Of a DNA stretch of 64,000 bases, positions 10,036 through 58,035 are shown piece by piece. Positions within the stretch are counted from its first letter, which is position 1, and every line of letters starts with the position of its first letter. The translations under genes were made by a program, and so were the position numbers. Source of the stretch: an uncultured Parachlamydiaceae bacterium (GTDB lineage: Bacteria; Chlamydiota; Chlamydiia; Chlamydiales; Parachlamydiaceae); contig CAWACC010000008.1 of NCBI GenBank assembly GCA_963780445.1, positions 12,523-76,522 on the forward strand. Reading direction: 5' to 3'. The notes beneath the pieces were generated by a model. That model was given only the letters and a program-made list of their open reading frames with translations, did no database searches and was not told the origin of the DNA.

Positions 10036-10050
10036 ATATCTCTGTCCCTA

Positions 10051-10404
10051 TAATGGATCCACAGTCATTTCCCCTGCAGGGGAAAATATAATCCCAGTCA
10101 TTTCCCCGGCAGGGGAAAATATAATCCCAGTCATTTCCCCGGCAGGGGAAAACGTGAATAGCCCCGTGTGAAGCGAGCGTAAGCGAGCGGAACGCGGGGT
10201 TATTGCATAATAAATATTGCGCCCCGGTAGGGGCGCAAGAATCCTTCCTTTCATCCAAATATTGTTTTGTGTTTTGTGTTTCGTGCGCCCCTGCCGGGGC
10301 GCAATCTTTACTATGCTGCAAACCCCGTGTTCCGCTCGCTGACGCTCGCTTCACACGGGGCTATTCACGTTTTCCCCTGCCGGGGAAATGACTGTGGACC
10401 CATT
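10051..10404. repeat. Roughly 355-bp nested palindromic element inside the V-ATPase operon
   Basis: Left terminus TAATGGATCCACAGTCATTTCCCCTGCAGGGGAAAA pairs with right terminus TTTTCCCCTGCCGGGGAAATGACTGTGGACCCATTA. Inner arms 10152-10201 and 10321-10369 are reverse complements, as are 10202-10240 and 10281-10321. Each arm contains GC-rich mini-hairpins (TTCCCC-TGCA-GGGGAA; GCGCCCC-GGTA-GGGGCGC). Confidence 0.9.
10062..10153. repeat. Three tandem 33-bp units (CAGTCATTTCCCCNGCAGGGGAAAATATAATCC) in the left arm only
   Basis: Unit starts at 10062, 10095 and 10128 give an exact 33-bp period. The right arm carries a single copy. Confidence 0.9.
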
Positions 10405-10421
10405 AAAATTCTGTTTTATCA

Positions 10422-22945: not shown

Positions 22946-23070
22946 TTCTTCACCACTGAGACACTGAGATCACTGAGAAAATATGAGATAATTGAGAGGG
23001 ATTATAATTTAGGCATCTATCTCATTATCTCATACCTTCTCAGTGATCTCAGTGGCTCAGTGGTGAAGAA
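22946..23070. repeat. Family-A (CACTGAG) palindromic element, copy 2
   Basis: TTCTTCACCACTGAGACACTGAGATCACTGAGAAAATATGAGATA ... TCTCATACCTTCTCAGTGATCTCAGTGGCTCAGTGGTGAAGAA. Confidence 0.9.
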
Positions 23071-23097
23071 TGACTTAGGTATTATTTAGGAGCAAAA

Positions 23098-24135
23098 ATG
23101 AACTCCCACCTTTTTAAAAATAAAACCGTCCTGATCACAGGGGGTACCGGCAGCTTTGGACGCTCTTTTGCCAAACGGCTCCTGACTGAAAATGAATGCA
23201 CCAAAGTGATCATCTTCAGCAGGGATGAATGGAAGCAATGGGAAATGCAACAATCAGATCCCATTTTCAAGCACCCCAAAATCCGCTATTTCTTGGGAGA
23301 CGTCCGTGACTCCACCCGCCTGATGCGGGCCTTCCACGAGGTCCACTATGTAATCCATGCCGCGGCCCTGAAGCAGGTGCCTGCTGCTGAATACAATCCC
23401 GGCGAATTCATCAAAACAAATGTATTGGGCGCCATGAACATCATCGAGGCCGCCATCGATTGCCAGGTGGAAAAAGTGATTGCCCTCTCTACAGACAAAG
23501 CCGTCAACCCCATCAACCTATATGGAGCCACCAAACTGTGCTCAGACAAACTGTTTATAGCCGGCAATGCCTATGTGGGCGCCAGAGGAATTCCCCGATT
23601 TTCAGTCGCCCGATATGGCAATGTTTCCGGAAGCCGCGGCAGCATTATCCCTTTTTGGGCCGGGCTGCTGGCAGAAGGAGCCGCATCGCTGCCCATTACA
23701 GACAGCCGCATGACACGTTTCTGGATCACCCTGGACCAAGCCATCGATTTTGTAGAAAAATGCTTTCAGGAAATGCGGGGAGGTGAAATTTTTGTACCGA
23801 AAATCCCCAGCATCCACATTGAAGACCTGGCAGAAGCCATGGCTCCTGGATTACCTAAAACCTATTGCGGAATCAGGGACGGAGAAAAATTGCATGAACT
23901 CATGATCAGCTCCGACGACGCAAGGCATACCATCGAATTCTCCGATCATTATGTCATCATTCCCGAAGCCTATATCCATGATCTCCATAAGCTCGCCAAA
24001 TTCTTGGATGGGCGGGAAGGTCAATTCACTCCGGAAGGCTTCTGTTATACCTCGAATAACAACACCCAGTGGCTGAAGGTTGAAGAACTGCGAAAACTAG
24101 TCAAAAGGGAAGGGACTAAAGGCAAAGGGACATAG
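23098..24135 (+). CDS. UDP-N-acetylglucosamine 4,6-dehydratase-like SDR (PseB/FlaA1/CapD family)
   Basis: 345 aa with Rossmann motif VLITGGTGSFG and catalytic YGATK. The last roughly 10 codons (REGTKGKGT*) are encoded by the family-B repeat. Confidence 0.8.
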   Translation: MNSHLFKNKTVLITGGTGSFGRSFAKRLLTENECTKVIIFSRDEWKQWEMQQSDPIFKHPKIRYFLGDVRDSTRLMRAFHEVHYVIHAAALKQVPAAEYNPGEFIKTNVLGAMNIIEAAIDCQVEKVIALSTDKAVNPINLYGATKLCSDKLFIAGNAYVGARGIPRFSVARYGNVSGSRGSIIPFWAGLLAEGAASLPITDSRMTRFWITLDQAIDFVEKCFQEMRGGEIFVPKIPSIHIEDLAEAMAPGLPKTYCGIRDGEKLHELMISSDDARHTIEFSDHYVIIPEAYIHDLHKLAKFLDGREGQFTPEGFCYTSNNNTQWLKVEELRKLVKREGTKGKGT

Positions 24136-24217
24136 GGACATAAGGGACCTAAGGGACTAAAGGGACAAAATTCATAATTTTATGTCCCTTAGGTCCCTTA
24201 GGTCCTTTAGGTCCCTT
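24105..24217. repeat. Family-B (AAGGGAC 9-mer) palindrome, copy 1
   Basis: The left arm has about 6 units of NNAAGGGAC, the loop is AAAATTCATAATTTTA, and the right arm is TGTCCCTTAGGTCCCTTAGGTCCTTTAGGTCCCTT. Confidence 0.9.
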
Positions 24218-26462: not shown

Positions 26463-26600
26463 AAAGTCATGGCACCACATGACTTTTTATGAGAAAGTAG
26501 CCAGGGCGTCCCGCCCTGGCACAAGCCGAGACGCCTGGTTACCTTTTCATGCTTCGCCTTGTCATAACTTTTAGGACGTACCAATAACGTCCTTAAGAAC
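26425..26600. repeat. Family-C units followed by family-D element, copy 2
   Basis: AAAACGACCTTAACGACCTTAACG followed by GTACGTCCTT...AGGACGTACCAATAACGTCCTTAAGAAC. Relative to copy 1 it has an extra hairpin AAAAAGTCATGGCACCACATGACTTTTT. Confidence 0.85.
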
Positions 26601-26699
26601 ATTTTTATTGTAGATTCTTAAATCCAAATTTGGTAATATACATGTTCAAGAATATGAAAAAATAAAAAATATAACCCTAAAAATTAATAAGGAGATTTT

Positions 26700-27593
26700 A
26701 TGCAAAGTATAAATACAAGTTTACCTATAGTTTATCCATCATTTCAAAACCTGGAAAGTGGATGGAACACACTTCCTCAAGATCTATCAAACAATATTTT
26801 TACCCAAGCTGGCGCGGAAAATCTTCCTTCGCTAGCTTTAACATGCAAAAATTGGTCAGTTCTAGCTGATAATAAAGAATTTAGAGAAAGTATACGGCCT
26901 GCCGGAATATTTGGCGCTAAGGAATGGAAAGAAACTTTTGATGTAGATGCCGGTGAAGAACCTAATTTGCCACGATGCGCCTACGCGGAAATGAAAGATG
27001 ATAACTTTCAGATCATTTTAGTTCCTGAAAAAGTTAAGGATGAGAAGGATGAAATTAATCTATATAGTAAAAAAGGGATAGATAAACTATTTAAAAAAAC
27101 AAAAAAATTAACTCTAAGGACAAATTGCCCTTTTATTTCAAATTGCTTCAAAATAATCAATCCCGAGAAAACACACTGGCTATCTATTGCAAAAGACTAT
27201 ATAAACACTGGTGGCTATTACAATGGTCAATTCCATGACATAGCAAAAAGACCGGTACACGTACGAATGGGATCTTGTGTTGTAAAACACATTCAGGCAA
27301 AAAAAGGAGAAGATATTTCTAGGCTCATAGATACTATAATAGCGCAAAGTATAAAATATATCAAAAAGCCAGATTTTAAAATGAAATTGTTCGTTGTTAA
27401 AGAAAAAATAGATTCTAAGACCCATATATGCGTCCATATTTACTTTGACATGCTTCATGGAATGGAATTGTGCGTTGGACATCCTGAAAATTATTCTTAT
27501 GAAAATTGGACCTATAATATTACTTTAGCAAAAAGATATTTTGCTCCTGAAGAAAATGCAATGGAAATCTGTGATCCTGATAATGCAATTTAA
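26700..27593 (+). CDS. F-box-like protein (paralog family 1, copy 2)
   Basis: 297 aa, a tandem duplicate of 25542..26462 (start-to-start period 1158 bp) with the same N-terminus and F-box-like motif. It stops at a TAA just before the family-C repeat. Confidence 0.65.
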   Translation: MQSINTSLPIVYPSFQNLESGWNTLPQDLSNNIFTQAGAENLPSLALTCKNWSVLADNKEFRESIRPAGIFGAKEWKETFDVDAGEEPNLPRCAYAEMKDDNFQIILVPEKVKDEKDEINLYSKKGIDKLFKKTKKLTLRTNCPFISNCFKIINPEKTHWLSIAKDYINTGGYYNGQFHDIAKRPVHVRMGSCVVKHIQAKKGEDISRLIDTIIAQSIKYIKKPDFKMKLFVVKEKIDSKTHICVHIYFDMLHGMELCVGHPENYSYENWTYNITLAKRYFAPEENAMEICDPDNAI

Positions 27594-27662
27594 AAAACGA
27601 CTTTAACGACCTTCACGACGATAATAAAAATGTCGTTAAGGTCGTTATTGTCGTTTGTCGTT
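27594..27662. repeat. Family-C (AACGAC) palindrome
   Basis: AAACGACTTTAACGACCTTCACGACGAT / loop / GTCGTTAAGGTCGTTATTGTCGTTTGTCGTT. Confidence 0.85.
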
Positions 27663-28404: not shown

Positions 28405-28502
28405 AAGCCTCCATTTAAAAAATTTTATAATCTAGCGAATCCAGTATAATTAATTAGGAAATATAAAATCAATTAAAAAGCAGTTCTTGCGAAAATTTGA
28501 GT

Positions 28503-28665
28503 AAAGGGACGAAAGGGACCTAAAGGACATAAGGAACCTAAAGGACATAAGGGACAAAACGACAAACAACGATAACGACCTGAACGACAATAACGACCTT
28601 AACGACAAACGACTTGTTTATTGTCGTCGTTAAAGTCGTTATTGTCGTTAAAGTCGTTTGTCGTT
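28503..28665. repeat. Family-B direct array (28503-28555) abutting a family-C palindrome (28556-28665)
   Basis: AAAGGGACGAAAGGGACCTAAAGGACATAAGGAACCTAAAGGACATAAGGGAC, then AACGAC-unit arms around the loop TTGTTTATT. Lies immediately downstream of the 5S rRNA. Confidence 0.9.
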
Positions 28666-28678
28666 AAATAAAAAAAAA

Positions 28679-28794
28679 GCCTGGCGGCGACCTACTCTCC
28701 CACACTCTTGTGTGCAGTACCATCGGCGATGAAAGGCTTAACTTCTGAGTTCGGAATGGGGTCAGGTGTTTCCCTTTCTCTATTGCCACCAGGC
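28679..28794 (-). rRNA. rrf: 5S ribosomal RNA
   Basis: The reverse complement reads GCCTGGTGGCAATAGAGAAAGGGAAACACCTGACCCCATTCCGAACTCAGAAGTTAAGCC...GGGAGAGTAGGTCGCCGCCAGGC, followed by a T-run. Confidence 0.93.
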
Positions 28795-29023
28795 AAGAAT
28801 ATCTTCGAATCCCTAGGGCTCTGTGCCCTAGTTGCCTAGGGCGATGCCCTAGGCTTCTACATACCAGGCTTTCAGCCTGATGATCGGATTTTGAATTCAC
28901 TTACAAAAATCAACGCTTGAGGTTATTCTTCACACACTCATTACAACTGTGATTTTACTAAACTTGCGACCACTCTTTCTTTATAGACGCTTTCTTAAGG
29001 TCCTTATTCACGTCTTCTTAAAA

Positions 29024-31967
<2,944 letters not shown>

Positions 31968-32275
31968 AAAAATTTATTCTTTGTTCAGCTGTAATATATT
32001 GTTGTTCGATCTCTCGAACATTGAGCTACGATGAGTATTGATTACTAGCTTCTTTTATGCCTTAGTCGCGGTCTGCACCTCTGCATATTTTTATGTGTGA
32101 AGATTATTCCTCAACGCCGTTGACTTTTTGGTCATGTGAATGCCTATATGTAGTTTCCCGCTGATTTGTCAGATCGTAAGTCTGATGATATTGAATAATT
32201 TAGCTTGGCAACGGTTACGATCGTTCAATCTGCGTAGACTGTGATAGCATACTGCACCGCAAAGCATAAAATTCA

Positions 32276-32349
32276 GTCGGTTACCAAGACTTGAACTTGG
32301 GACCTCGACATTATCAGTGTCGCGCTCTGACCAACTGAGCTATAACCGC
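32276..32349 (-). tRNA. tRNA-Ile (anticodon GAT)
   Basis: Reverse complement GCGGTTATAGCTCAGTTGGTCAGAGCGCGACACTGATAATGTCGAGGTCCCAAGTTCAAGTCTTGGTAACCGAC. Anticodon loop CTGATAA. No CCA is encoded. Confidence 0.85.
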
Positions 32350-32365
32350 TTATGCTTGTTAACCA

Positions 32366-32437
32366 TGGAGGCTAGGAGACTCGAACTCCTGACCCTCTGA
32401 ATGCAAATCAGATGCTCTACCAACTGAGCTAAACCCC
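32366..32437 (-). tRNA. tRNA-Ala (anticodon TGC)
   Basis: Reverse complement GGGGTTTAGCTCAGTTGGTAGAGCATCTGATTTGCATTCAGAGGGTCAGGAGTTCGAGTCTCCTAGCCTCCA. Anticodon loop TTTGCAT. The G3:U70 identity pair is present. Confidence 0.85.
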
Positions 32438-32621
32438 GATTATACCTAATAATGAGTATACAGGATGAGATTCAGCCAATTAAATGACCCGTTCTCGAGA
32501 GCGCTCCGCGGCGTAACTTGTTTCCATGATTCTGTCATTTTGACAACGAAAGAAGACGACGTGTTTACTAGTGAAGTTTGCCCAACCTAAGTATCGCATC
32601 TTCTGCGATACTTTGTCCTTT

Positions 32622-34158
<1,537 letters not shown>

Positions 34159-34376
34159 AAAAAAAAAATTTTGAAAATTTGTTGGTGACACTTTACGTGT
34201 CTTTTATAATTCGTGATTTATCGTTTATTATAACGAGTTCACGTACAAGCTTTATTTCGTTTGCACATCGTCTTTTATCTACTGTCAAAACAACATTGAT
34301 CGCATCAGGCGATCTGTTCGATTCATTTGATATTAGCTTGCCCTTGCCTACTACTCACCATGCGAATGAAGCTCAA

Positions 34377-34450: not shown

Positions 34451-34472
34451 TCGCGTTGAGAACATATTGTAG

Positions 34473-34623
34473 AAGGGTAAGGGACCAAAGGGACGAAAGG
34501 GACCAAAGGGACCAAAGGGACGAAAGAGACATAAGGGACATAAGGGACATACAAAATATGCTGTGATTCCTTACGCCCTTTCGTCCTTTATATCCCTTTT
34601 GCCCCTTATGTCCCTTTGGTCCC
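34473..34623. repeat. Family-B (AAGGGAC 9-mer) palindrome, largest copy
   Basis: Eight consecutive 9-bp units (GTAAGGGAC CAAAGGGAC GAAAGGGAC CAAAGGGAC CAAAGGGAC GAAAGAGAC ATAAGGGAC ATAAGGGAC), a loop, then degenerate inverted units ...CCCTTATGTCCCTTTGGTCCC. Confidence 0.92.
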
Positions 34624-35379
34624 AGTTGCCTTTTGCAATAATGCTGTGATCACTTCCGGATTATTATCATATATTTTTTTTACAATTTCATTTAGCAGTG
34701 TTCTAGCTCCCTTATGATTTTTTTCTACAGCTTTTTTAAGCCAGAACAAAGCCTTTTGAATTCTAGCCATGCAATCTTTTTTGGTTTCATTATCTGGCAC
34801 CCACGCACCTCCTTGATCAAGCAATCGCTTTCCCAAAAAGTAGGTAGCTTCCAGGTGCCCTTTATTTGCTGCCTGCTCTAACCAGTAGAGAATTACCTCG
34901 ACTTTAGGTCCATCCTCAAAATCATTCGTGTATATGATATAACCATAATAGGCAGTATAATACAGCCATAATGCTTTAGGGTTTTCAAAAGGATCTCCAT
35001 CTTCATTCTCCACATATCTTTTGGCCAATATATATAGGGCATAATAATCCTCCGGGTTTGCGACCACATCGAGATGATGCATGCATTTAAAATACTGCCT
35101 TGCAGCTTTTTCAGTTACATAGTATCTTCCATAAGCATCTTTCAGCTCTCTTACATTTGATGAATATAAATACACAGTACGGGACAAATGCTGAAACCAG
35201 TACTTCATATTGGATTGATTCCTTGCATGGATCCTATCGTTTACTATTTTTGAAATGAGACAGCATTTTGCCAGGTGCCGGGGTGTCAGATATCCGAAAA
35301 TTTTGCTTCTGAGCTCTTCTGGAAGGGATACAAAGTCGTAAACTATCTGGTTAGGCGGCTGGGCATTGTAACTAATCAT
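34606..35379 (-). CDS. F-box / Sel1-like repeat protein
   Basis: 257 aa with the canonical F-box LPEELRSKIFGYLTPRHLAKCCLISKIVNDRI and Sel1-like repeats (WLEQAANKGHLEATYFLGKRLL; WLKKAVEKNHKGARTLL). The C-terminal ...TGTKGT* is encoded by the family-B repeat. Confidence 0.75.
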   Translation of the reverse strand: MISYNAQPPNQIVYDFVSLPEELRSKIFGYLTPRHLAKCCLISKIVNDRIHARNQSNMKYWFQHLSRTVYLYSSNVRELKDAYGRYYVTEKAARQYFKCMHHLDVVANPEDYYALYILAKRYVENEDGDPFENPKALWLYYTAYYGYIIYTNDFEDGPKVEVILYWLEQAANKGHLEATYFLGKRLLDQGGAWVPDNETKKDCMARIQKALFWLKKAVEKNHKGARTLLNEIVKKIYDNNPEVITALLQKATGTKGT

Positions 35380-38269: not shown

Positions 38270-39163
38270 ATGTTTTGCAAACGCCTGAAAAAAGAAATTG
38301 CTCCCGGCACTTTCATTTCCACTCCCGCGCGCCTCATGGCTATATTGCAATTGTGCCTGGCTTTTACGGTCCTGGCATGGCAGGCGGGTTATCCCTTTAT
38401 GGGAGAGCTGTTTGAAATAAAATCAAAATTGCTGGTCTATGACTATGTGATGGGGGTGAACAATGCAACCTATGCAGAACAGTTTTCGAATCTGCCCGAA
38501 AAGAAGAAAGAAGAAATTTTAAGGGAATACCAGACCTTAAAAGCTCATTTGGGCCGCCCTTTTGTGGATAAAGCGCTAGATTCTGTAGAAAGGGTATTTT
38601 TCAGCCTATCCCCCTTCAAATTATTGTGGATATTCTTCTCCATCATTATTCCCATTTTATTGCTTAAGAAGGTCGAAGGGGCCGCTTCAGTGATCTGGCT
38701 CCTTCCCTTGACCACCATGGTATTTATTGTCCATAACAGATGGTATGGAGAGGTGGTTCCTCTTTCCAAGGATACACAGCTTTTTCCTACTGAAGAAATC
38801 ATTGTTAATAACTATTTGAGGCATCCTTTGAGTTCCGATTTAAACCTGCAGGAGAAGCAGCTTCGCAATGGCTGGGAACTGTATTTGATTGAGGAATGGG
38901 CAAAAGAAACTCCTTCTTCGGATGCCTTCCAATTCACATTACAGAAAGAAAAAGGCGATTTTGCATTTAATCTTGCCCGGCTTTCCGGGCTGGAAATCAA
39001 ACCCTATAAATCATTCAATAATACACAGGAATCCTATCCTGTTTTGGCTCTCTATTTATTTTGGAACCTATCTTTTGCGTTAGTGGTGGGATCGGCTCTC
39101 CAGACTCCGCAGACAAGGCAAACAATACAAATTGTGTACCATTCTTCACCACTGAGCCAGTGA
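38270..39163 (+). CDS. Hypothetical integral membrane protein
   Basis: 297 aa with several TM helices. The start is 3 nt after the upstream stop, suggesting translational coupling. The last codons (SSPLSQ*) lie inside the family-A repeat arm. Confidence 0.5.
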   Translation: MFCKRLKKEIAPGTFISTPARLMAILQLCLAFTVLAWQAGYPFMGELFEIKSKLLVYDYVMGVNNATYAEQFSNLPEKKKEEILREYQTLKAHLGRPFVDKALDSVERVFFSLSPFKLLWIFFSIIIPILLLKKVEGAASVIWLLPLTTMVFIVHNRWYGEVVPLSKDTQLFPTEEIIVNNYLRHPLSSDLNLQEKQLRNGWELYLIEEWAKETPSSDAFQFTLQKEKGDFAFNLARLSGLEIKPYKSFNNTQESYPVLALYLFWNLSFALVVGSALQTPQTRQTIQIVYHSSPLSQ

Positions 39164-39270
39164 GATCACTGAGAAGGTTTGAGATAGGGAGGATAGATGC
39201 CTATTGATCAACTGTAACATGGCATTTGACGTACGTCCTTAAAAAGTTATGGCAAAGCAAAGCATGAAAA
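39143..39270. repeat. Half family-A element (39143-39200) plus a partial inverted family-D fragment (39228-39270)
   Basis: TTCTTCACCACTGAGCCAGTGAGATCACTGAGAAGGTTTGAGATAGGGAGGATAGATGCC has no right arm. GACGTACGTCCTTAAAAAGTTATGGCAAAGCAAAGCATGAAAA is the reverse complement of the family-D right arm. Confidence 0.8.
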
Positions 39271-39359: not shown

Positions 39360-41222
39360 ATGAACAAAATTGATTCTATTAATCCTGCATTCGAGACTCC
39401 TCTTCACCTGGCAGTCAAAAGAGGTGATTTGCCCCAATGTAAATTATTGTTGGAGAAGGGCGCTAATATTAACGCCATCAATTGCCTTGGACAAAAAATA
39501 TTACCTATTGCATACGAATCTGAAAACAAAGAGCTCAGGTTCTTTTTTTTAAAAGAGATGATGAAAACCAAACCATTGTCCAATGATGGCAAGACTCCCA
39601 TTTTTGAATATGAGTGTTATCATCACAAACCTCTTTCCGACAAGGAATATGATGATTTTGAAGCGCCTCATAATGAGTTGACAAAATTGACAAAAGAACT
39701 GAAGCTTTTAGGCTTACGCTTTTCTTTACGAGGAAACGTCTTTGAAGGGAGCCCCTCTTTTTTAACCTATAATGCTCTCGCTTCATCTCTGGAAAACTAT
39801 TTAAAGCTCAATCCAGGGCAACCAGCGTCTATTCAATCCATTCCTGATATCATTAAAAATTCTGTAAATATTAAATCTGAGGAAATAATCACACAATTAA
39901 AGCAAAACAAAATAGCGACCCTTTCTTGCGGTTGGCCAGGACATGAAACAACAATAGTCTGTTCTAATAAATATTTAATAATCTGTAATAGGGGAAGTCA
40001 ATGTGGGGATAAACCTGGAATCACCCTATATTCGATTAATAATCCTGCAAAGCTTGATGCCATTATCAGAACCCTTATTGAAAATAGACAGTGGAAACTG
40101 GATCAGAAGGAACAAGCCAAAATTGCAATTGAGGGTACAAGAATTGCTTTTCTAAAAGAAAACATGAAAGAAAAATTTATTAATTTTTTTAATAAAGAAT
40201 TACAGGAAACATTGAAACTTAAAGAACTTCGATATTTCAAACAAAAACCTCAGACAAGTGGAAACTGTGCCTGGATTGGGCCAAAAATGGCTTTCCAGGG
40301 AATTATTATCCTCAATTCAATGCTGGAAAACCCCAATGCCGACCTCGATGACCTTATAAAGGAATCCAAAAAAATTTATACTGAATGGAAAGAATTTGAT
40401 TTGATTCATTCTTTGAAAATCCTCTCCGAAGCGGAAAAAGAACCTTTACTCAAATCTATAGTCGATTTTGAAGCAGTCTATGATGAGTTGTTTGCTTTAA
40501 ATCTTTCAAGAAAACCAGCTCTTGATATGCTATGCAATGCACGACCTCGTTTAAAAGAGTGGATTTCCAATCCCCCTTCTCACGTGATTTCCCATGCCTA
40601 TCAGCATAAGAGTTCAAAACTTTTAAAATCGTGCCTTTCCGCTGGCATTCCACCTGATTTGGAAAAGTTCAGCAAGTGCAACGATAACAAAATCTCCGAC
40701 ATTCATTACGATTACTTTCTAAAGAAAGATATAAAAGCCAATCAGGCGGATGCTTCCGGGATAACTCCTCTGCATGCCCTGTGCTGCAATGCTAACACAG
40801 CCAAGTTGCTGGAACTATTAAAATCCTGGAAAAAGGAAAGTGAAGAACTGAAAGAACCGCAATTATTTCAGAATGCCTTAAACGGTAAAAGTAGTTTAGG
40901 ATTGAACTTTCTTGATGTTCTAATTACAAAAGCAAAGGATCTGGCATCTTTAAAAGAATTGATCGATTGGTCCATTAAATCCGGAGCTGGTATTTTTGAT
41001 GCGACTATTCAGAATACCTTGGTAAAATTCAAAAAAACAGAAGACCTGGAAGTGATCAAAATGCTGTTGAAAAATGCAGGTTATTCTTTGGATGATTGCG
41101 CTTTCCTCTTTGATAATTTATTGAATGGTGAGCCTTACGAATTTACGGAAGCGGTTTTTATGGATTTGTCAGCAGATAGACAAAAATCCCTGCAAAATAA
41201 CCCAGAAGGGCAGGTACAGTAA
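39360..41222 (+). CDS. Ankyrin-repeat protein with a large non-repeat central domain (candidate effector)
   Basis: 620 aa with an N-terminal ANK repeat (TPLHLAVKRGDLPQCKLLLEKGANINAIN) and C-terminal ANK repeats (ITPLHALCCNANTAKLLELL...). The central region of about 350 aa carries the motifs GWPGHETTIVCSNKYLIICNRG and QTSGNCAWIG. Confidence 0.7.
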   Translation: MNKIDSINPAFETPLHLAVKRGDLPQCKLLLEKGANINAINCLGQKILPIAYESENKELRFFFLKEMMKTKPLSNDGKTPIFEYECYHHKPLSDKEYDDFEAPHNELTKLTKELKLLGLRFSLRGNVFEGSPSFLTYNALASSLENYLKLNPGQPASIQSIPDIIKNSVNIKSEEIITQLKQNKIATLSCGWPGHETTIVCSNKYLIICNRGSQCGDKPGITLYSINNPAKLDAIIRTLIENRQWKLDQKEQAKIAIEGTRIAFLKENMKEKFINFFNKELQETLKLKELRYFKQKPQTSGNCAWIGPKMAFQGIIILNSMLENPNADLDDLIKESKKIYTEWKEFDLIHSLKILSEAEKEPLLKSIVDFEAVYDELFALNLSRKPALDMLCNARPRLKEWISNPPSHVISHAYQHKSSKLLKSCLSAGIPPDLEKFSKCNDNKISDIHYDYFLKKDIKANQADASGITPLHALCCNANTAKLLELLKSWKKESEELKEPQLFQNALNGKSSLGLNFLDVLITKAKDLASLKELIDWSIKSGAGIFDATIQNTLVKFKKTEDLEVIKMLLKNAGYSLDDCAFLFDNLLNGEPYEFTEAVFMDLSADRQKSLQNNPEGQVQ

Positions 41223-42438: not shown

Positions 42439-42514
42439 ATGAAATTATCCTTCTTTCTATGTATAAAATTCATTGATACAGTAAAATGATATTTTATGGA
42501 ATGATAAGTTGTCA

Positions 42515-43027
42515 ATGGAAACTAGGTTATTGGTCATTAAAACCCATCTTAAACCAGCTATAAAAAGGACAGCCTTAGTCAGAGGTACTTTGCTGGGTGG
42601 ACTGGGAGCTGTTATTATGGTTTTAGGCGGAATATATATTCCTCTCAATTCACTTGCAGTATGGGGCCTTCCGCTATTTCTGGCGGGTTTCGGTCTGATC
42701 ACCCTAGGCCTTCTCCCCTATCGAAAACTGTTGCGGCAAGAACAGCAGCCCTGTGAACTGCATCTTTATGAGGCCAGGCTGTTATTTATACACAAAAGGA
42801 TTCTTCTCACCTTGCCTCTGGCCAGTATAGAAAAAATGGAATTTCAAACCCTTCGAAACATGGAAGGTATTACTGTATATCTTAAAAATCCTGTACCAGA
42901 GAAAATAGTGCTTCACAGGCAGCGGCTTTCTGCAAAGCAATTGTATTATTTTAAAAACGCCCTATTTTTCCCTAATTTCAGCCATAGATCTTACGAAGAA
43001 TTAATGAAAGGGACCAAAGGGACATAA
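42515..43027 (+). CDS. Hypothetical membrane protein
   Basis: About 170 aa with two N-terminal TM helices. The C-terminal MKGTKGT* is encoded by a family-B repeat. Start placed at the first ATG; the track uses a TTG at 42509. Confidence 0.45.
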   Translation: METRLLVIKTHLKPAIKRTALVRGTLLGGLGAVIMVLGGIYIPLNSLAVWGLPLFLAGFGLITLGLLPYRKLLRQEQQPCELHLYEARLLFIHKRILLTLPLASIEKMEFQTLRNMEGITVYLKNPVPEKIVLHRQRLSAKQLYYFKNALFFPNFSHRSYEELMKGTKGT

Positions 43028-43051
43028 ATTTGTTGTCCCTTAGGTCCCTTT
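43007..43051. repeat. Family-B hairpin between convergent genes
   Basis: AAAGGGACCAAAGGGACATAAATTTGTTGTCCCTTAGGTCCCTTT fills the whole convergent spacer, in a bidirectional-terminator-like position. Confidence 0.85.
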
Positions 43052-44122: not shown

Positions 44123-45577
44123 ATGAATATTAAAAAAATTCCTATAACCATTGCTGAAGGAGATGGCATTGGCCCAGAAATTATGAACGCAACTTTGTTG
44201 ATTCTGGAAACTGCCAAAGCCCCGCTTGATATTCATCGCGTGGAAATAGGGGAAAAAGTGTATAAGCGAGGTGAAAAGACCGGCATTGAACCTGCGACAT
44301 GGGATGCGATCCGCCGGACAAAGGCTTTTTTAAAAGCTCCCATAACCACTCCGCAAGGAGGAGGATTCAAAAGCCTGAATGTGACTATCCGGACTTCTCT
44401 TGGGCTTTATGCCAATGTGAGGCCCTGTATTTCTTACAGCCCCTTTGTGGAATCAAGGCATCCCAAAATGAATGTCGTCGTCGTAAGGGAAAACGAGGAG
44501 GACCTCTATACAGGCATAGAATACCGCCAGACACCGGATACCTACCACGCCTTGAAAATCATCACCAGGCCAGGATGTGAAAAGATCGTCCGTTATGCGT
44601 TTGAATATGCCAGGGCGAACAAAAGAAAAAAGGTGACCTGTTTTACAAAAGACAACATCTTAAAACTATCCGACGGGCTTTTTCACAAAATCTTTGACGA
44701 AATCGCAAAAGAGTACCCTGATCTGGAAAATGAACATTGGATTGTGGATATCGGCGCTGCCAAGCTGGCGGATACTCCCGAAGTCTTTGATGTGATCGTC
44801 ATGCCCAATTTATATGGAGATATCCTCTCCGATGTGGCCGCCCAGATTGCCGGCTCTGTGGGACTGGCCGGATCGGCCAACATTGGAGAACACGGGGCCA
44901 TGTTTGAAGCCATTCATGGATCAGCTCCCAGGCGGGCAGGGCAGAACCTGGCAAATCCCTCGGGACTCCTGCTGGCGGCAGTACAAATGCTGGTACATTT
45001 GGGACTTGCTGAAACAGGGACTCTAATCCACAATGCCTGGTTGAAAACCTTGGAAGATGGCATTCATACCTATGATATTTTCAAACCCAATACAAGCAAG
45101 GAAAAGGTAGGCACAAAAGAATTTGCGAAAGCTGTAGCTGCCCGATTGGGCCAAATCCCGCATACGCTCAAGGCGGTTCATTATGCCGCACCTAACATGA
45201 GCAAACACACACCTTCGCAGCCATCTTCCCAAGCTCCAAAGATAACAAAGGAACTTGTTGGCATCGACGTTTTTATTGAATCTCATGGAGATGTAGAATC
45301 CCTGCAAAAAAAATTGTCCTCCCTGAAAAACAAGGATTTCAAACTCACGATGATCAGCAACCGCGGAGTGCGCGTATGGCCGGAAAAGATGCCTGAGACC
45401 TCCTGCAGCGATACCTGGAGGTGTCGTTTCATGAAGAAAGAAAACAAACTCCATTTAAAGCAGTTAGCGGAGCTTATTCAAAATCTGGCAGATGCCCAAG
45501 TGGATTTTGTCAAAACAGAACATCTGTACACTTTTGATGGAGTGCCGGGGTATACGGTAGCCCAAGATGAACAATAA
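44123..45577 (+). CDS. icd: Isocitrate dehydrogenase (isocitrate/isopropylmalate DH family, long form with a C-terminal extension of about 130 aa)
   Basis: 484 aa with the family signature NLYGDILSDVAAQIAGSVGLAGSANIG. The stop codon TAA is the first base triplet of the family-B repeat (TAAGGGAC). Confidence 0.8.
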   Translation: MNIKKIPITIAEGDGIGPEIMNATLLILETAKAPLDIHRVEIGEKVYKRGEKTGIEPATWDAIRRTKAFLKAPITTPQGGGFKSLNVTIRTSLGLYANVRPCISYSPFVESRHPKMNVVVVRENEEDLYTGIEYRQTPDTYHALKIITRPGCEKIVRYAFEYARANKRKKVTCFTKDNILKLSDGLFHKIFDEIAKEYPDLENEHWIVDIGAAKLADTPEVFDVIVMPNLYGDILSDVAAQIAGSVGLAGSANIGEHGAMFEAIHGSAPRRAGQNLANPSGLLLAAVQMLVHLGLAETGTLIHNAWLKTLEDGIHTYDIFKPNTSKEKVGTKEFAKAVAARLGQIPHTLKAVHYAAPNMSKHTPSQPSSQAPKITKELVGIDVFIESHGDVESLQKKLSSLKNKDFKLTMISNRGVRVWPEKMPETSCSDTWRCRFMKKENKLHLKQLAELIQNLADAQVDFVKTEHLYTFDGVPGYTVAQDEQ

Positions 45578-45786
45578 GGGACTAAAGGGACCAAAGGAAC
45601 ATAAAGGTTTACCACTGAGCCAGTGAGATCACTGAGAATGTATGAGATAATTGAGAGGAGTCTGAAACATATGTTAAAAGACGGACTTAATAGTATAGGA
45701 GTTGAATCTAACTCGCCCTATCTCATACCTTCTCTGTGATCTCACTGGCTCAGTGGTAAACCATGTCTTTTATGTCCCGTCTTTCA
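45575..45786. repeat. Composite element: family-A copy 4 (45608-45760) nested between family-B arms
   Basis: TAAGGGACTAAAGGGACCAAAGGAACATAAAGG | TTTACCACTGAGCCAGTGAGATCACTGAGAATGTATGAGATAATTGAGAGGAGTCTGAAACATATGT ... CTCACTGGCTCAGTGGTAAACC | ATGTCTTTTATGTCCCGTCTTTC. Confidence 0.9.
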
Positions 45787-46449
45787 TTGCTTTTCAACCT
45801 CGAATTTTTTGAATAATTCCCTGATGGCATTCCCTCGATCATTATCAAATTCATCCGATTTTATTATTCTTGCTATCGTGATTGTATCATAATCGATTTT
45901 TGCATTCATATCTGCTCCACTTTTCAGCAAAAATTCAATGATAGAAAGAGGCATAGACCTATTATATATATAATTAAGACATGCCGCAAGAAGAGGTGTC
46001 ACTCTACAATAAGTACGAGTATGTCCGCGTTTACAGTTCAAACTTTGCGGAATTAGCCTCACGATATCTTTGATATCCTTTTCGGTTTCTTGAGTATATG
46101 CCTTAATGGAATGATCGCCAAATGGGAGATTCCATCCGGTAAAAACAGCATCGAGAAGATGAGGATTTACATCACCGTCTTGTTCTCCATATTGCTCATA
46201 ATATTCGTTATATACAGAATATTTATTTACAAGCTCGTGGATTCTTTTTAGATCTTTCATTTTTTCAGAAAATACTACTGATGTTTCTTTGTTAATTTTG
46301 GCAATGTTGTTTATTGTGTTGGCATAATTTTTTATTTTGCAACTTGTAATCATTGTTGGTTGATCAAGAATGGCAATTTTTAAAATAATTGAATTGACCT
46401 CTGAAGGCAATTCTGGAAATAAGGGAAATGATAAATTTAAGTTGGACAT
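45784..46449 (-). CDS. F-box-like / ankyrin-repeat protein (paralog family 2, copy 1)
   Basis: 221 aa with N-terminus MSNLNLSFPLFPELPSEVNSIILK (tentative F-box-like LPxE...IL motif) and a C-terminal ANK-like segment TPLLAACLNY...IIEFLLKSGADMNAKI. One of three tandem paralogs. Confidence 0.6.
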   Translation of the reverse strand: MSNLNLSFPLFPELPSEVNSIILKIAILDQPTMITSCKIKNYANTINNIAKINKETSVVFSEKMKDLKRIHELVNKYSVYNEYYEQYGEQDGDVNPHLLDAVFTGWNLPFGDHSIKAYTQETEKDIKDIVRLIPQSLNCKRGHTRTYCRVTPLLAACLNYIYNRSMPLSIIEFLLKSGADMNAKIDYDTITIARIIKSDEFDNDRGNAIRELFKKFEVEKQ

Positions 46450-46551
46450 GATGTCTCCTATTATATTAGATTTTTGAACACGATTTTATTGAGGCATATG
46501 CCCGAGGTATTCCTCGAAAATTTTTTGAGCTAATTCTAACCGGGCCTTCTC

Positions 46552-47229
46552 CTAAATTTTTTCAAACTCGTATTTTTTGAATAATTCCCTGATGGCATGC
46601 CCTCGATCTGTATCAAATTCATCCGATTTTATCATTCTTGCTATCGAGATTGCACTACCATATTTACCAGAATCGATTTTTGCATTCATATCTGCTCCAC
46701 TTTTCAGCAAAAATTCAATGATAGAAAGAGGCCTAGGCGCATGATATTTATAATTAAGACATGCCGCAAAAAGGGGCGTCACTTTTTGACACATACGAGT
46801 ATATCCATGTTTACAGTTCAAACTCTGAGGAGTTAACCTCACGATATCTTTAATATCATTTTCGGTTTCTTGAGTATATTCCTGAATCGAATGATCGCCA
46901 AATGGGAGATTCCATCCGGTTAAAACAGCATCGAGAAGATGCGGATTTACATCACCGTCTTCTTCTCCATATTGCTCATAATCTCTGTTATATATAGTAT
47001 ATTTATTTACAAGTTCGCGAATTCTTTTTAAATCTTTCATTTTTTCAGAAAGCACTTCGAAGGTTGTTTTGTTAATCGAAGCAATGTTGTTTATTTTGTT
47101 GGCATAATCTTTTATTTTGCCACTTGTAATTATTGTTGGTTGATCAAGAATGACATTTTTTAAAATAATTGAATTGACCTCTGAAGGCAATTCTGGAAAT
47201 AAGGGAAATGATAAATTTAAGTTGGACAT
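46552..47229 (-). CDS. F-box-like / ankyrin-repeat protein (paralog family 2, copy 2)
   Basis: 225 aa, nearly identical at the N-terminus to copies 1 and 3. It ends at a TAG where copy 3 has TGG (Trp). Confidence 0.6.
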   Translation of the reverse strand: MSNLNLSFPLFPELPSEVNSIILKNVILDQPTIITSGKIKDYANKINNIASINKTTFEVLSEKMKDLKRIRELVNKYTIYNRDYEQYGEEDGDVNPHLLDAVLTGWNLPFGDHSIQEYTQETENDIKDIVRLTPQSLNCKHGYTRMCQKVTPLFAACLNYKYHAPRPLSIIEFLLKSGADMNAKIDSGKYGSAISIARMIKSDEFDTDRGHAIRELFKKYEFEKI

Positions 47230-47253
47230 GATGTCTCCTATTATATTAGATTT

Positions 47254-47315
47254 ACACGATGTGCGAGTTTGTCTTGCAGCCTTTCCAGGCTGTCAAGAAA
47301 AACTCGCACGCCGCG
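47254..47315. mobile_element. 62-bp palindromic (MITE-like) insertion flanked by an 8-bp direct duplication TTAGATTT
   Basis: The paralogous spacer at 46466-46480 reads TATTAGATTTTTGAACACG without interruption. Here the spacer reads TATTAGATTT[ACACGATGTGCGAGTTTGTCTTGCAGCCTTTCCAGGCTGTCAAGAAAAACTCGCACGCCGCG]TTAGATTTTTGAACACG. The insert folds as a long hairpin (GTGCGAGTTT.../...AAACTCGCAC). Confidence 0.6.
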
Positions 47316-47335
47316 TTAGATTTTTGAACACGATT

Positions 47336-48106
47336 TTATTGAGGCATAAGCCTGAGGTATTCCTCGAAAATTTTTTGAGCTAATTCTGGAGGTATTTCCG
47401 AAAGGATGGATTGCGGATCTTTCTTTTGTGCCAGAAATAGGAACCGGGCCTTTTCCCAAATTTTTTCAAACTTATATTTTTGGAGCAATTCCAAAATAGC
47501 ATGTTGTCGAGTGGCATCCATTTCTGTATAATTCTCTTCTACTAAGTAAGATGCAGATTCCTTCCCGGCGCAGGTTGCATAAAGATTCGCTCCACTTTTC
47601 AGCAAAAATTCAACGATGGAAACAGGTATTTTTTCGTTGATACATGCAACAATCAAAGGAGGAGTTTTAATGGTGAGACGCGTTTGTCCCTCATTACAAT
47701 TCAAACTTTGAGGAGTAAGCCTGACTATATCTTTGATATCCTTTTCGGTTTCTTGAGTATAAACCCCAATGGAATGTTTGCCACCAGGTAAATCCCATCC
47801 GGTAAAAACAGCATCGAGAAGATGGTGATTTATGAAACGGTCTCCAAATAGCTCATAACATTCGTTATATACAGTATATTTATTTATAAGTTCGTGGATT
47901 CTTTTTAGATCTTTCATTTTTTCAGAAAAGACTTCTGAGGTTTCTCTGTTAATCTTGGCAATGTTGTTAATTTTAATGGCACAATCTTTTATATTTTTAC
48001 TTGTAAATATTGTCGGTTGATCGAAAATGACATTTTTTAAAATAATTGAATTGACCTCTGAAGGCAAATCTGGAAATAAAGGAATTGATAAATTTAAGTT
48101 TGACAT
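47336..48106 (-). CDS. F-box-like / ankyrin-repeat protein (paralog family 2, copy 3, with a C-terminal extension)
   Basis: Start reassigned to MSNLNLSIPLFPDLPSEV to match its paralogs (the track ORF starts 22 codons upstream). It has an extra C-terminal tail ...KIWEKARFLFLAQKKDPQSILSEIPPELAQKIFEEYLRLMPQ containing a second F-box-like LxxIPPELxxKIF motif. Confidence 0.6.
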   Translation of the reverse strand: MSNLNLSIPLFPDLPSEVNSIILKNVIFDQPTIFTSKNIKDCAIKINNIAKINRETSEVFSEKMKDLKRIHELINKYTVYNECYELFGDRFINHHLLDAVFTGWDLPGGKHSIGVYTQETEKDIKDIVRLTPQSLNCNEGQTRLTIKTPPLIVACINEKIPVSIVEFLLKSGANLYATCAGKESASYLVEENYTEMDATRQHAILELLQKYKFEKIWEKARFLFLAQKKDPQSILSEIPPELAQKIFEEYLRLMPQ

Positions 48107-48250
48107 AACGTCTCCTGTTTCTATATTTTTGAATACGATATTAAATTTATAATAAATAAAAATAATCGTCAAGTATAAAAAAACATATATAAAAAAACGA
48201 TATTATGGTATGATTAGTTTTGCCTTTAATATTAAAGTTAAGGAGACAAC

Positions 48251-49715: not shown

Positions 49716-49903
49716 AAAAGGGACCAAAGGGACATAGTTTACCACTGAGCCACTGAGATCACTGAGAAGGTATGAGATAATTGAGAGGAGTCTGAAACAT
49801 ATGTCAAAAAGACAGACTAAAACAGAGCCTAACCCTCTCTATCTCATACCTTCTCAGTGATCTCAGTGGCTCAGTGGTAAATTATATCCCTCTGGTCCCT
49901 TAT
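49716..49903. repeat. Composite element: family-A copy 5 (49738-49882) nested between family-B arms
   Basis: AAAAGGGACCAAAGGGACATAG | TTTACCACTGAGCCACTGAGATCACTGAGAAGGTATGAGATAATTGAGAGGAGTCTGAAACATATGT ... CAGTGATCTCAGTGGCTCAGTGGTAAATT | ATATCCCTCTGGTCCCTTAT. Same orientation and core as copy 4. Confidence 0.9.
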
Positions 49904-57989: not shown

Positions 57990-58035
57990 AGGGCATAAGG
58001 GACAAAAACTAATTTGATGTCCCTTATGTCCCTTT
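57990..58035. repeat. Family-B hairpin immediately upstream of the 58055 gene's SD
   Basis: AGGGCATAAGGGACAAAAACTAATTTGATGTCCCTTATGTCCCTTTA, followed by TCTTTTAGGAGGTAAATTATG. Confidence 0.85.

What the first reader, a model, noticed from the sequence alone, without database searches (positions are those of the whole stretch)
45575..45786. Repeat families are nested: family-A elements sit exactly at the centre of family-B or family-C palindromes
At 45575-45786 and 49716-49903 a family-A element is inserted at the loop of a family-B palindrome, so the B arms flank it on both sides in inverted orientation. At 15635-15852 the same occurs inside a family-C palindrome. Either family A targets the loops of B and C hairpins (structure-directed insertion, as known for some IS200/IS605-type and REP-associated systems), or the composites propagate as units. 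All three arm types share a direct-repeat register of 8-9 bp.
Basis: partly seen in the sequence, partly recalled or inferred. Interest (0 to 1): 0.7.

Follow-up and report, generated by a model that had tools for sequence, protein, structure and literature searches.

The report
Hairpin repeats nested inside other hairpins
In this chromosome piece from an environmental chlamydia, a 125-160 bp hairpin repeat, which is a gene-less relic of an insertion sequence carrying an uncharacterised GxxExxY nuclease gene, sits at the tip of terminator-position hairpins built from tandem 9-mers far more often than chance allows, so hairpin tips are preferred or uniquely tolerated landing sites.

Summary
At 45575-45786, 49716-49903 and 15635-15852 a family-A hairpin lies between inverted B or C arms. 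Each composite folds as one continuous hairpin (z -10.7, -17.3, -11.0). Three of five A copies nested is unlikely by chance (P about 3e-5 to 3e-4).

The interpretation needs revising:
- The two B-A-B composites share homologous junctions and are copies of one ancestor, so the window holds two independent nesting events.
- B and C are one superfamily of tandem 9-mer palindromes; 8 of 9 abut a gene 3' end.
- A is not IS200/IS605- or RAYT-type. Related Chlamydiae hold an intact IS5-family element (9-bp duplication, IS903-like 18-nt ends) with the same arms around a transposase and a GxxExxY (PD-(D/E)XK) gene. Window A copies retain its gene 3' end.
- In 80 metagenome loci from many taxa, GxxExxY genes lie between inverted arms of tandem 8-9-mers. 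I found no published description of this.
- Nesting is reciprocal: other tandem-repeat palindromes sit inside A loops elsewhere.
- Nested A copies lack the IS ends and any target duplication, so how they were placed is unresolved.

No transposase or nuclease gene lies in the window.

The parts
45576..45605 (+). Left B arm of composite 1: 3.5 tandem 9-mers of the AAGGGACnn type. It starts at the icd stop codon (45575-45577).
   Evidence: family D4; TRF 45576-45607, period 9
45606..45762 (+). Family-A hairpin element, subfamily A1. Arms are 45606-45649 and 45719-45762. It has no IS5-type outer end and no target duplication.
   Evidence: (I10: 44 nt, 95%)
45674..45698 (+). Remnant of the 3' end of a GxxExxY gene inside A1. 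TTAAAAGACGGAC..TTAATAGTATAG corresponds to ..LKDG..LIV*; in L012 the matching stretch is CTGAAGTATGGTATTCGTCGTTTAATAGTATAA.
   Evidence: the intermediate L048 keeps 21 codons
45763..45786 (+). Right B arm of composite 1, inverted and decayed. It holds one clear unit, ATGTCCC.
49716..49736 (+). Left B arm of composite 2.
49737..49882 (+). Family-A hairpin element, subfamily A1. It is the sister copy of 45606-45762 (125/137 identical) and lies in the same orientation.
   Evidence: (I2)
49883..49903 (+). Right B arm of composite 2, inverted.
15635..15654 (+). Left C arm of composite 3. It is short (AAAACGATCTTTATCGACAAGG).
15655..15802 (+). Family-A hairpin element, subfamily A2. Its interior, GAGATGGGGAGGATAGA.., resembles the transposase-stop side of the intact IS.
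   Evidence: (I23)
15803..15852 (+). Right C arm of composite 3: about 5.5 tandem 9-mers of the GTCGTTnnn type.
   Evidence: TRF 15797-15844
22946..23072 (+). A1 copy that is not nested in B or C. Its ends are CTTCACC..GGTGAAG.
   Evidence: (I9)
39140..39215 (+). Left half of an A2 copy, not nested. It is conserved in sister strain L069.
24105..24217 (.). B palindrome without A. It overlaps the 3' end of ORF 23098..24135.
34470..34623 (.). B palindrome without A. It lies between the 3' end of ORF 34606..35379 and the 16S rRNA gene.
   Evidence: (I16)
42999..43050 (.). B palindrome without A, filling the gap between convergent genes. Sister strain L069 has two more units on the left arm and one more on the right.
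57995..58034 (.). Short B palindrome without A.
   Evidence: (D15)
27596..27662 (.). C palindrome without A, between convergent genes.
28495..28668 (.). A B array (28495-28562) that runs directly into a C palindrome (28565-28668). It lies just downstream of the 5S rRNA gene.

Best explanation
Each of the three sites is one long composite hairpin built from two kinds of module.

The inner module, A, is a non-autonomous hairpin of 125-160 bp. It is an internal-deletion derivative of an IS5-family insertion sequence. In related Chlamydiae that element carries a transposase gene and a GxxExxY (PD-(D/E)XK) gene between the same arms. The arms (ACCACTGAG CCACTGAG ATCACTGAG ...) belong to a class of tandem 8-9-mer inverted arms that enclose GxxExxY genes in many phyla.

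The outer modules, B and C, are one superfamily of REP-like palindromes. They are made of tandem 9-mers, lie at gene 3' ends, and change length by whole units.

Nesting arises when a complete hairpin module comes to lie at the apex of an existing hairpin without duplicating the target. A composite formed this way can then be copied as a unit, which explains the two B-A-B copies.

Shown here: the anatomy, the non-randomness, the ancestry of A, the reciprocity of nesting, and the unit copying.

Inferred: the placement step. The most likely account is structure-directed insertion at the hairpin or cruciform tip by machinery that acts on the ACCAC...GTGGT hairpin ends, reinforced by selection, because only apex insertions keep the terminator-position hairpin intact. 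The GxxExxY nuclease is a candidate for that machinery.
For: Anatomy and folding.

Non-randomness.

A1 and A2 each have both nested and non-nested members, so the A core moves independently of the B/C arms.

B/C palindromes exist without A at six sites, and 8 of 9 abut a stop codon or the end of the 5S gene. B and C units mix within single arrays at window 28495-28610 and in L019, L023 and L036. Between strains about 95% identical, arms gain or lose 9-nt units.

The intact element in L155 reads: duplication GGTATCTAC, end GGCTTTGTTGTACAATTC plus A arm, IS5 transposase (314 aa, NF033579, 301.7 bits), GxxExxY gene (139 aa), A arm plus end, duplication GGTATCTAC. MITE copies show 9-bp duplications in L042, L044 and L026. 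L048 keeps the last 21 codons of GxxExxY, and window A1 keeps about 25 nt (45674-45698) of the same gene end.

The GxxExxY gene lies between CACTnAG arms in Bacteroidetes as well (L003, L011, L058). In 44 of 76 metagenome loci the gene's two flanks form an inverted repeat scoring above the 99th percentile of the null. Exact 5-mers repeated three times at 8-10 nt spacing occur in 31 of 73 upstream flanks and 31 of 73 downstream flanks, against 13 of 605 control windows.

Reciprocal nesting: palindromes of other families lie inside A loops in L007, L067, L009, L049, L010, L050 and L032, and A lies inside GATCACGAT arms in L001.

The two B-A-B copies share junctions.

Relatives carry unrelated hairpins at the same icd 3' and argS 5' positions.
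Against: - No empty-versus-filled orthologous site was found. The sister strain (L069, about 95% identical) has the same composite, and more distant relatives have neither A nor B there. The direction of nesting is therefore inferred, not observed.
- Nested A copies lack the IS5 ends and any duplication. The one mobility mechanism documented for this element, DDE transposition, does not explain them.
- Gene-bearing GxxExxY hairpins in metagenomes are mostly in unique DNA. Their outer flanks are not palindromic (median score equal to the null), so apex targeting is not a general property of the class.
- Most A copies in other Chlamydiae are not inside B/C-type arms.
- The window contributes only two independent events.
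- No GxxExxY, IS5 transposase or Y1 gene lies in the window.
- Nothing shows that GxxExxY proteins cut or move DNA. The structure model was too poor to help.
Confidence: 0.5

Rival explanations
1. Unit propagation only. One or very few composites (B-A-B, C-A-C) formed once, by any accident, and were then spread as whole units by recombination or duplication. Nesting would then say nothing about target choice.
For: The two B-A-B composites are sister copies with homologous junctions. They lie in direct orientation around a 4-kb lineage-specific block between icd and argS; in L074, L158 and L159 only a patatin gene lies upstream of argS, and in L074 that gene is all that separates icd from argS. 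Within single MAGs, composites of one type recur: L007 and L067, and L009 and L049.
Against: A1 in B and A2 in C are different subfamilies inside different arm types. Other genomes show nesting with at least five further partner families and in both directions. Unit copying cannot account for that many distinct combinations.
Confidence: 0.2
2. Ordinary IS5-type MITE transposition into a symmetric target. The transposase mobilised A copies that had IS903-like ends into the AT-rich centre of B/C palindromes. The 18-nt ends and the 9-bp duplications were lost later. From memory, unchecked here: IS903 is reported to prefer a palindromic target (Hu and Derbyshire 1998).
For: The intact IS and MITEs with 9-bp duplications exist in related genomes. 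In L044 a MITE with IS ends sits inside a B/C-type array, and its duplication TCCTTTATG equals one array unit.
Against: All three nested window copies, and both non-nested ones, lack the ends. The 17-18 nt outside A show no residual similarity to the IS end (my reading). B/C arms abut the canonical ACCAC end directly, leaving no room for an IS end plus a duplication. The L044 insertion is in an arm, not at the centre.
Confidence: 0.12
3. Growth around A. B/C arms are not older than A. They arise and lengthen in place on both sides of an A hairpin, by slippage or fold-back copying, so A ends up central by construction.
For: B arrays gain and lose 9-nt units between strains, including the left arm of the icd composite. 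The outer and inner arms form one uninterrupted stem with no loop remnants.
Against: Six B/C palindromes in the window have no A and have ordinary AT-rich loops. The arms of the composites are shorter and more decayed than those of A-less palindromes. The same B/C units occur at many loci, which in-place origin does not explain.
Confidence: 0.13
4. Chance neighbours. A and B/C merely share a liking for short gaps at gene 3' ends.
For: Both kinds of element lie mostly at gene ends.
Against: P is 3e-5 to 5e-3 under random intergenic placement. The arms flank A symmetrically and continue its stem. Nesting recurs in other genomes.
Confidence: 0.03

Closest known systems
REP/BIME elements as insertion targets (IS1397, ISPpu9, ISPpu10, ISPsy8 and others)
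   Same: Short dispersed palindromes at gene ends serve as landing sites for a second mobile element. Tobes and Pareja 2006 (PMC1525189) describe REPs as hot spots for specific insertion sequences.
   Different: Here the incoming element is itself a hairpin repeat without a transposase gene. It leaves no duplication and lies at the apex, so the two stems stack. The targets are tandem 9-mer arrays rather than 20-40 bp GC-rich REPs. Nesting also occurs in the reverse direction.
REPIN/RAYT systems (Bertels and Rainey 2011, PMC3116915; Nunvar 2010, PMC2817692; Ton-Hoang 2012, PMC3333891)
   Same: A single-copy gene is flanked by inverted copies of a repeat that also occurs, gene-less, many times in the genome. 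Tandem clusters occur too: L011 and L058 hold arrays with a period of about 115 nt.
   Different: The enclosed gene is a PD-(D/E)XK-family GxxExxY protein, not an HUH Y1 transposase. The arms are 3-5 tandem 8-9-mers (C-A/G-C-n-n-A-G type), not a single REP hairpin. No activity has been shown. True RAYT-like genes in related Chlamydiae (L050, L159) have different repeats.
MITEs derived from IS5-family (IS903-group-like) insertion sequences
   Same: Copies in other Chlamydiae have 18-nt GGCTTTGTTG-type ends, 9-bp duplications, and interiors that are deletion remnants of the full element (L155).
   Different: The window copies have lost, or never had, the terminal 18 nt and the duplication. The long subterminal arms are shared with GxxExxY cassettes that have no IS at all.
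Small dispersed repeats (SDR) of heterocystous cyanobacteria (Elhai et al. 2008, Genome Res 18:1484; recalled from memory, paper not held, cited in PMC3116915)
   Same: Very small hairpin repeats reported to be inserted within other repeats, including tandem heptamer arrays and MITE-like sequences, with no known enzyme.
   Different: The phylum, size (21-27 nt against 125-160 bp) and sequences all differ. I could not check the details.
Intervening sequences of 23S rRNA (from memory)
   Same: Extended stem-loops, sometimes carrying a small ORF, placed at the tip of an existing helix.
   Different: Those lie within rRNA and are removed by RNase III. No such element interrupts the 23S gene here: the Rfam match covers model positions 1-2925 across 2941 nt of window sequence (29027-31967).

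Membership tests
MITE of an IS5-family insertion sequence | Terminal inverted repeats matching those of an autonomous IS | tested here: not met
   For the window copies, the 18-nt GGCTTTGTTGTACAATTC end of L155 is absent from all five A copies. Only the subterminal arms match. The feature is met by copies in other MAGs.
MITE of an IS5-family insertion sequence | Target-site duplication of the length made by the parent IS (9 bp) | tested here: not met
   No direct repeat flanks any window copy. Nine-bp duplications are present in L155, L042, L044 and L026.
MITE of an IS5-family insertion sequence | Interior derived from the parent element by deletion; no coding capacity | tested here: met
   A1 keeps the GxxExxY 3' end, and A2 keeps the region beside the transposase stop. 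L048 and L012 are intermediates.
REP/REPIN with RAYT | Cognate Y1 (HUH) transposase gene flanked by the repeat | tested here: not met
   There is no Y1 gene in the window. The Y1 genes found in L050 and L159 are flanked by different GC-rich repeats. The gene found between A-type arms is GxxExxY.
REP/REPIN with RAYT | Short (20-40 bp) GC-rich imperfect palindrome, often with a GTAG or CGTC tag (PMC3733652) | tested here: not met
   A arms are 44-70 nt long and consist of tandem 8-9-mers. B/C arms are AT-rich 9-mer arrays.
IS200/IS605-type element | Subterminal hairpins at each end, no terminal inverted repeats, TnpA(Y1) and/or TnpB gene | tested here: not met
   A is one large inverted repeat. 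The associated transposase is a DDE enzyme of the IS5 family.
REP-like, terminator-position palindromes (functional class, for B/C) | Dispersed intergenic palindromes immediately downstream of genes | tested here: met
   Eight of nine B/C palindromes start within about 11 nt of, or overlap, a stop codon or the 5S end.
REP-like, terminator-position palindromes (functional class, for B/C) | Actual effect on termination or mRNA stability | not testable with these tools
   The simple terminator scan cannot see stems with such long loops. Testing this needs Term-seq or RNA-seq.
GxxExxY-associated hairpin cassette (class proposed here) | Inverted arms of at least three tandem 8-9-mers beginning (T)(T/C)ACCAC-type | tested here: met
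   The window A arms match the pattern seen around GxxExxY genes in Chlamydiae, Bacteroidetes and 80 metagenome loci.
GxxExxY-associated hairpin cassette (class proposed here) | GxxExxY (TIGR04256 / PF13366) gene, or a remnant of it, between the arms | tested here: inconclusive
   Only a 25-nt remnant, with a frameshift and an 8-nt deletion, is present in A1. It is convincing only through the intermediates L048 and L012.

The most novel reading that the evidence does not exclude
GxxExxY proteins (TIGR04256/PF13366; 22,575 clusters at 50% identity; function unknown) may be the enzymes of a widespread hairpin-repeat system that has not been described. In this reading a PD-(D/E)XK nuclease gene sits in the loop of a long hairpin whose arms are tandem 8-9-mers. 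Gene-less copies multiply in the genome, as REPINs do with RAYT. The hairpins are placed at the tips of other hairpins without target duplication, which produces the nested palindromes seen here.
Probability: 0.25. Interest if true: 0.85.

Novelty: new variant of a known kind. Interest (0 to 1): 0.62.

Why it matters
Dispersed palindromes serving as landing pads for mobile DNA is a known idea (REP/BIME and their insertion sequences). This case differs because both partners are hairpin repeats built on the same 8-9 bp plan. They stack into stems of 70-150 bp, the nesting runs in both directions, and it leaves no duplication. That points to a placement mechanism, or a selective filter, centred on hairpin tips.

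Following family A also gave a concrete lead on a very large protein family with no known role. GxxExxY genes in many phyla lie inside such hairpins, and in Chlamydiae one cassette is carried within an IS5-family element. This makes the function of GxxExxY proteins testable, using cognate arms as candidate substrates.

It also explains a practical nuisance. Metagenome assemblies break at these repeats: L157 starts inside an A arm, and most close GxxExxY homologues lie on contigs of 1-2 kb.

Tried and rejected
- My first guess, from the sequence alone, was cyanobacterial STRR or Nezha-type repeats. I dropped it when the genome scan returned Chlamydiae MAGs.
- One segmental duplication explaining both B-A-B sites: rejected. 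The upstream genes are unrelated (icd and a hypothetical protein).
- Empty-site test at icd and argS using one close relative of each gene (99% and 100% protein identity: L069, L157) and more distant relatives (74-83% protein identity: L070-L074, L158, L159). The close relative at icd (L069) has the same composite; the one at argS (L157) shows only its right part, because the contig starts inside the right A arm. The distant relatives have unrelated hairpins or none. No informative polymorphism was found.
- The exact window proteins are not on record in the contig index.
- Search for target duplications at nested junctions: none found.
- Search for genes inside B/C-type palindromes across all loci: none found.
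- Structure of GxxExxY: there is no PDB relative by sequence. The AlphaFold2 model has mean pLDDT 61, and Foldseek against the PDB gave nothing below E = 0.6.
- Rfam: no family at gathering score apart from rRNA and tRNA. One sub-threshold hit, to the plant MIR2118 precursor, reflects a generic long hairpin.
- The simple terminator scan does not register these stems.
- Literature searches found no description of Chlamydiae MITEs or of GxxExxY-associated repeats. PF13366 is listed as function unknown.
- Elhai 2008 could not be read.
Full report
**What the window is.** It carries a complete rRNA operon on the minus strand and about 46 protein genes. About 14% of it is intergenic. Three lines place it in an environmental member of the Chlamydiae close to Parachlamydiaceae:
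- The family-A pattern hits mostly Parachlamydiales, Parachlamydiaceae and Chlamydiales MAGs.
- The closest named homologues of its isocitrate dehydrogenase are annotated as Parachlamydia.
- The closest named homologues of its ArgRS are annotated as Protochlamydia or Parachlamydiaceae.

**Checking the observation.** Family A has five copies in the window, giving nine arms against 0 expected in shuffles. They are at 15655-15802, 22946-23072, 39140-39215 (left half only), 45606-45762 and 49737-49882. Each is a large inverted repeat with arms of 38-47 nt that are 92-95% complementary. The arms are themselves tandem 8-10-mers with a TGAG core: ACCACTGAG CCACTGAG ATCACTGAG AAGGTATGAG ATAATTGAG.

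Family B consists of arrays of AAGGGACnn, and family C of arrays of AACGACnnn. Both have period 9 and form palindromes with short AT-rich loops.

At 45575-45786 and 49716-49903 B arms flank A, and at 15635-15852 C arms flank A, as reported. Two caveats apply. The right B arm at 45763-45786 is decayed. The C arms are unequal, at about 23 and 55 nt. All three composites fold as one uninterrupted hairpin, with z-scores of -10.7, -17.3 and -11.0.

With 8879 nt of intergenic DNA and nine B/C centres, three of five A copies at centres has P between 3e-5 and 3e-4.

**How many independent events.** The two B-A-B composites are each other's closest A copies (125/137 identical). They share the left junction GGGACCAAAGGnACATA..GTTTACC. 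Their right junctions differ mainly by one 9-nt unit. The genes upstream of them are unrelated. The two copies lie in direct orientation around a 4-kb block of lineage-specific ORFs between icd and argS. In L074 only a patatin gene separates icd and argS, and in L158 and L159 the same patatin gene lies directly upstream of argS.

They are therefore copies of one ancestral composite. The window contains two independent nesting events: A1 in B and A2 in C. Subfamilies A1 and A2 each also have a non-nested member, so the A core is a discrete unit that occurs in different contexts.

**What B and C are.** B and C units run into one another in a single array at 28495-28610. They are also mixed within arrays in other Chlamydiae (L019, L023, L036). 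I treat them as one superfamily.

Eight of the nine B/C palindromes overlap or closely follow a stop codon or the end of the 5S gene, and several fill the gap between convergent genes. Some arrays extend into coding 3' ends.

A strain about 95% identical (L069) has the same composite at icd. It differs by whole 9-nt units in B arms, with two more on the left and one more on the right at 42999-43050.

More distant relatives carry unrelated hairpins at the same icd 3' and argS 5' positions. This suggests that a hairpin is maintained at these positions while its sequence family turns over. By position, B/C are REP-like elements. Their function was not tested.

**What A is.** In other Chlamydiae MAGs, A-type arms are usually bounded by an 18-nt end (GGYCTTGTTGCATAATTA, IS903-like) and by 9-bp target duplications (L042, L044, L026).

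An intact element in L155 has this layout:
- duplication GGTATCTAC;
- 18-nt end plus A arm;
- IS5-family transposase (314 aa; NF033579, 301.7 bits);
- a 139-aa GxxExxY protein (TIGR04256, PF13366);
- A arm plus 18-nt end;
- duplication GGTATCTAC.

Deletion intermediates exist. L012 keeps a transposase C-terminal fragment plus the GxxExxY gene. L048 keeps only the last 21 codons of GxxExxY. Window A1 copies retain about 25 nt of that gene end (45674-45698), with an 8-nt deletion and a frameshift.

The window itself holds no IS5 transposase, GxxExxY or Y1 gene. All window A copies lack the 18-nt ends and any duplication.

**A wider pattern.** The same kind of arms encloses GxxExxY genes in Bacteroidetes loci that have no IS ends. 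Gene-less hairpins there also form tandem arrays with a period of about 115 nt (L003, L011, L058).

I fetched 80 metagenome loci with a GxxExxY alignment. In 44 of the 76 usable loci, the upstream and downstream flanks form an inverted repeat scoring above the 99th percentile of a between-locus null. The median score was 20.75, against 9.0 for the null and 10.0 for direct repeats.

The arms are nearly always 3-4 tandem 8-9-mers: CACGGAG, CGCAGAG, CACATAG, CACAGAG, CACGAAG, CATTAAG and others, typically beginning (T)TCACCAC. Under a strict periodicity criterion, 31 of 73 upstream flanks and 31 of 73 downstream flanks qualify, against 13 of 605 control windows.

The family is large: 22,575 clusters at 50% identity. 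It is listed as of unknown function (PMC3424549). I found no paper describing these flanking arms.

The association is an observation. Nothing here shows that the protein acts on the arms.

**Nesting elsewhere.** In other Chlamydiae loci, palindromes of other tandem-repeat families lie inside A loops:
- GGATAAGCA type in L007 and L067, giving 320-nt hairpins with free energy near -200 kcal/mol;
- GCAGAG type in L009 and L049;
- ACAAAG type in L010;
- ACGAT type in L050;
- another family in L032.

In L001, A lies inside GATCACGAT arms. Several of these inner families are the same motifs that enclose GxxExxY genes in metagenomes.

Nesting is thus reciprocal and recurrent, but it is not the rule. 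Most A copies in other genomes have IS ends or unique DNA outside them. Gene-bearing GxxExxY hairpins in metagenomes show neither palindromic outer flanks nor duplications, with L104 the one exception.

**Mechanism.** The following are shown:
- the modules are discrete;
- A's boundary is the same ACCAC...GTGGT end in every context;
- the outer arms continue A's stem with no loop remnant and no duplication;
- composites can be copied whole.

The following is inferred: a complete hairpin module is placed at the apex of an existing hairpin, either by machinery that recognises hairpin or cruciform tips, or because only apex insertions leave the terminator-position hairpin intact, or both.

The one mechanism documented for this element, DDE transposition with 9-bp duplication, does not fit the nested copies. 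It does operate on copies with IS ends, including one inside a B/C-type array (L044). The direction of nesting could not be observed because no polymorphic site was found.

I put 0.5 on apex placement into pre-existing B/C hairpins followed by unit copying. The rivals are unit copying alone (0.2), growth of B/C around A (0.13), transposase-mediated insertion with later loss of ends (0.12) and chance (0.03).

**Comparison with known systems.** The closest analogues are REP/BIME elements as targets of specific insertion sequences (PMC1525189) and REPIN/RAYT systems (PMC3116915, PMC2817692, PMC3333891).
- no Y1 gene is associated with A, B or C;
- the repeats are not REP-like in size or composition;
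- the transposase linked to A is an IS5-family DDE enzyme.

RAYT-like genes do occur in related Chlamydiae, but with their own GC-rich repeats (L050, L158, L159).

I rate the nested arrangement as a new variant of a known kind. If the GxxExxY-hairpin association proves functional, it would be a new kind of system.

Noticed in passing
L075-L154 (metagenome loci); L003, L011, L058; L012, L155: GxxExxY (TIGR04256/PF13366) genes from many taxa lie between inverted arms made of 3-4 tandem 8-9-mers of the C-A/G-C-n-n-A-G type. The motif differs between loci but is uniform within a locus. I found no description of this in the searched literature.
   Followed up: partly
L097, L099, L115: Three contigs share an orthologous site (the upstream gene ends ..EYNAKLG). 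Their GxxExxY hairpins have different unit motifs: GCAGAG, ACAGAG/CTCAGAG and ACAAAG/ACGAAG. All units of both arms appear to change together.
   Followed up: no
window 10049-10407: A separate GC-rich nested palindrome. It has three tandem 33-mers (CAGTCATTTCCCCGGCAGGGGAAAATATAATCC), then 74-nt arms that are 97% complementary (10128-10201 and 10321-10394) enclosing a further 46-nt arm pair.
   Followed up: no
window 28495-28668 and 34470-34623: The rRNA operon (minus strand, 28679-34163) is bracketed by B/C arrays. One lies directly after the 5S gene and one lies upstream of the 16S gene.
   Followed up: no
window 42999-43027, 24105-24135: B arrays extend into coding 3' ends (for example ..KGTKGT* in ORF 42509..43027). 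In the sister strain L069 the array is two units longer, which would lengthen the protein tail in frame.
   Followed up: partly
window 45784-48172 and 25542-27593: There are three tandem paralogous ORFs (221, 225 and 278 aa; weak ankyrin signal) between the two B-A-B composites. There are also two tandem paralogs (306 and 297 aa) whose ends carry C-type arrays.
   Followed up: no
L069 5621-6084 (sister strain; corresponds to window 40233-40235): A 463-bp insertion splits the 620-aa ORF of the window (39360..41222). It is bounded by direct copies of the small hairpin CCCTCCCCTAAAGGAGAGGG, so it is another mobile element that is polymorphic between the two strains.
   Followed up: no
L050 6524-7181; L159 1-745 and L158 600-1000: RAYT-like Y1 transposase genes occur in related Chlamydiae. 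One is flanked by 64-nt GC-rich inverted repeats. One is a tandem-domain protein followed by four tandem units of about 120 nt that resemble REP/BIME arrays. The repeats are unrelated to A, B or C.
   Followed up: partly
L044 6790-7060: An A-type MITE with IS ends sits inside a B/C-type array. Its 9-bp duplication (TCCTTTATG) is exactly one array unit, so the duplication length of the IS equals the period of the B/C arrays. This may be coincidence or a route to array growth.
   Followed up: no
L009, L049, L010: Palindromes nested in A loops in one MAG are 'inside-out' relative to gene-bearing hairpins of the same motif. The pyrimidine-rich arm comes first, and the AAAC end faces the centre.
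   Followed up: no
L157 1-25; table: The contig carrying the identical ArgRS starts inside the right A arm of composite 49716. Most close homologues of the chlamydial GxxExxY gene lie on contigs of 1-2 kb. These repeats break short-read assemblies.
   Followed up: no
L156 8-1339: An IS4-family (Tn5-like) transposase is inserted into a decayed copy of the IS5/GxxExxY element. This is a further example of elements nested in elements.
   Followed up: no
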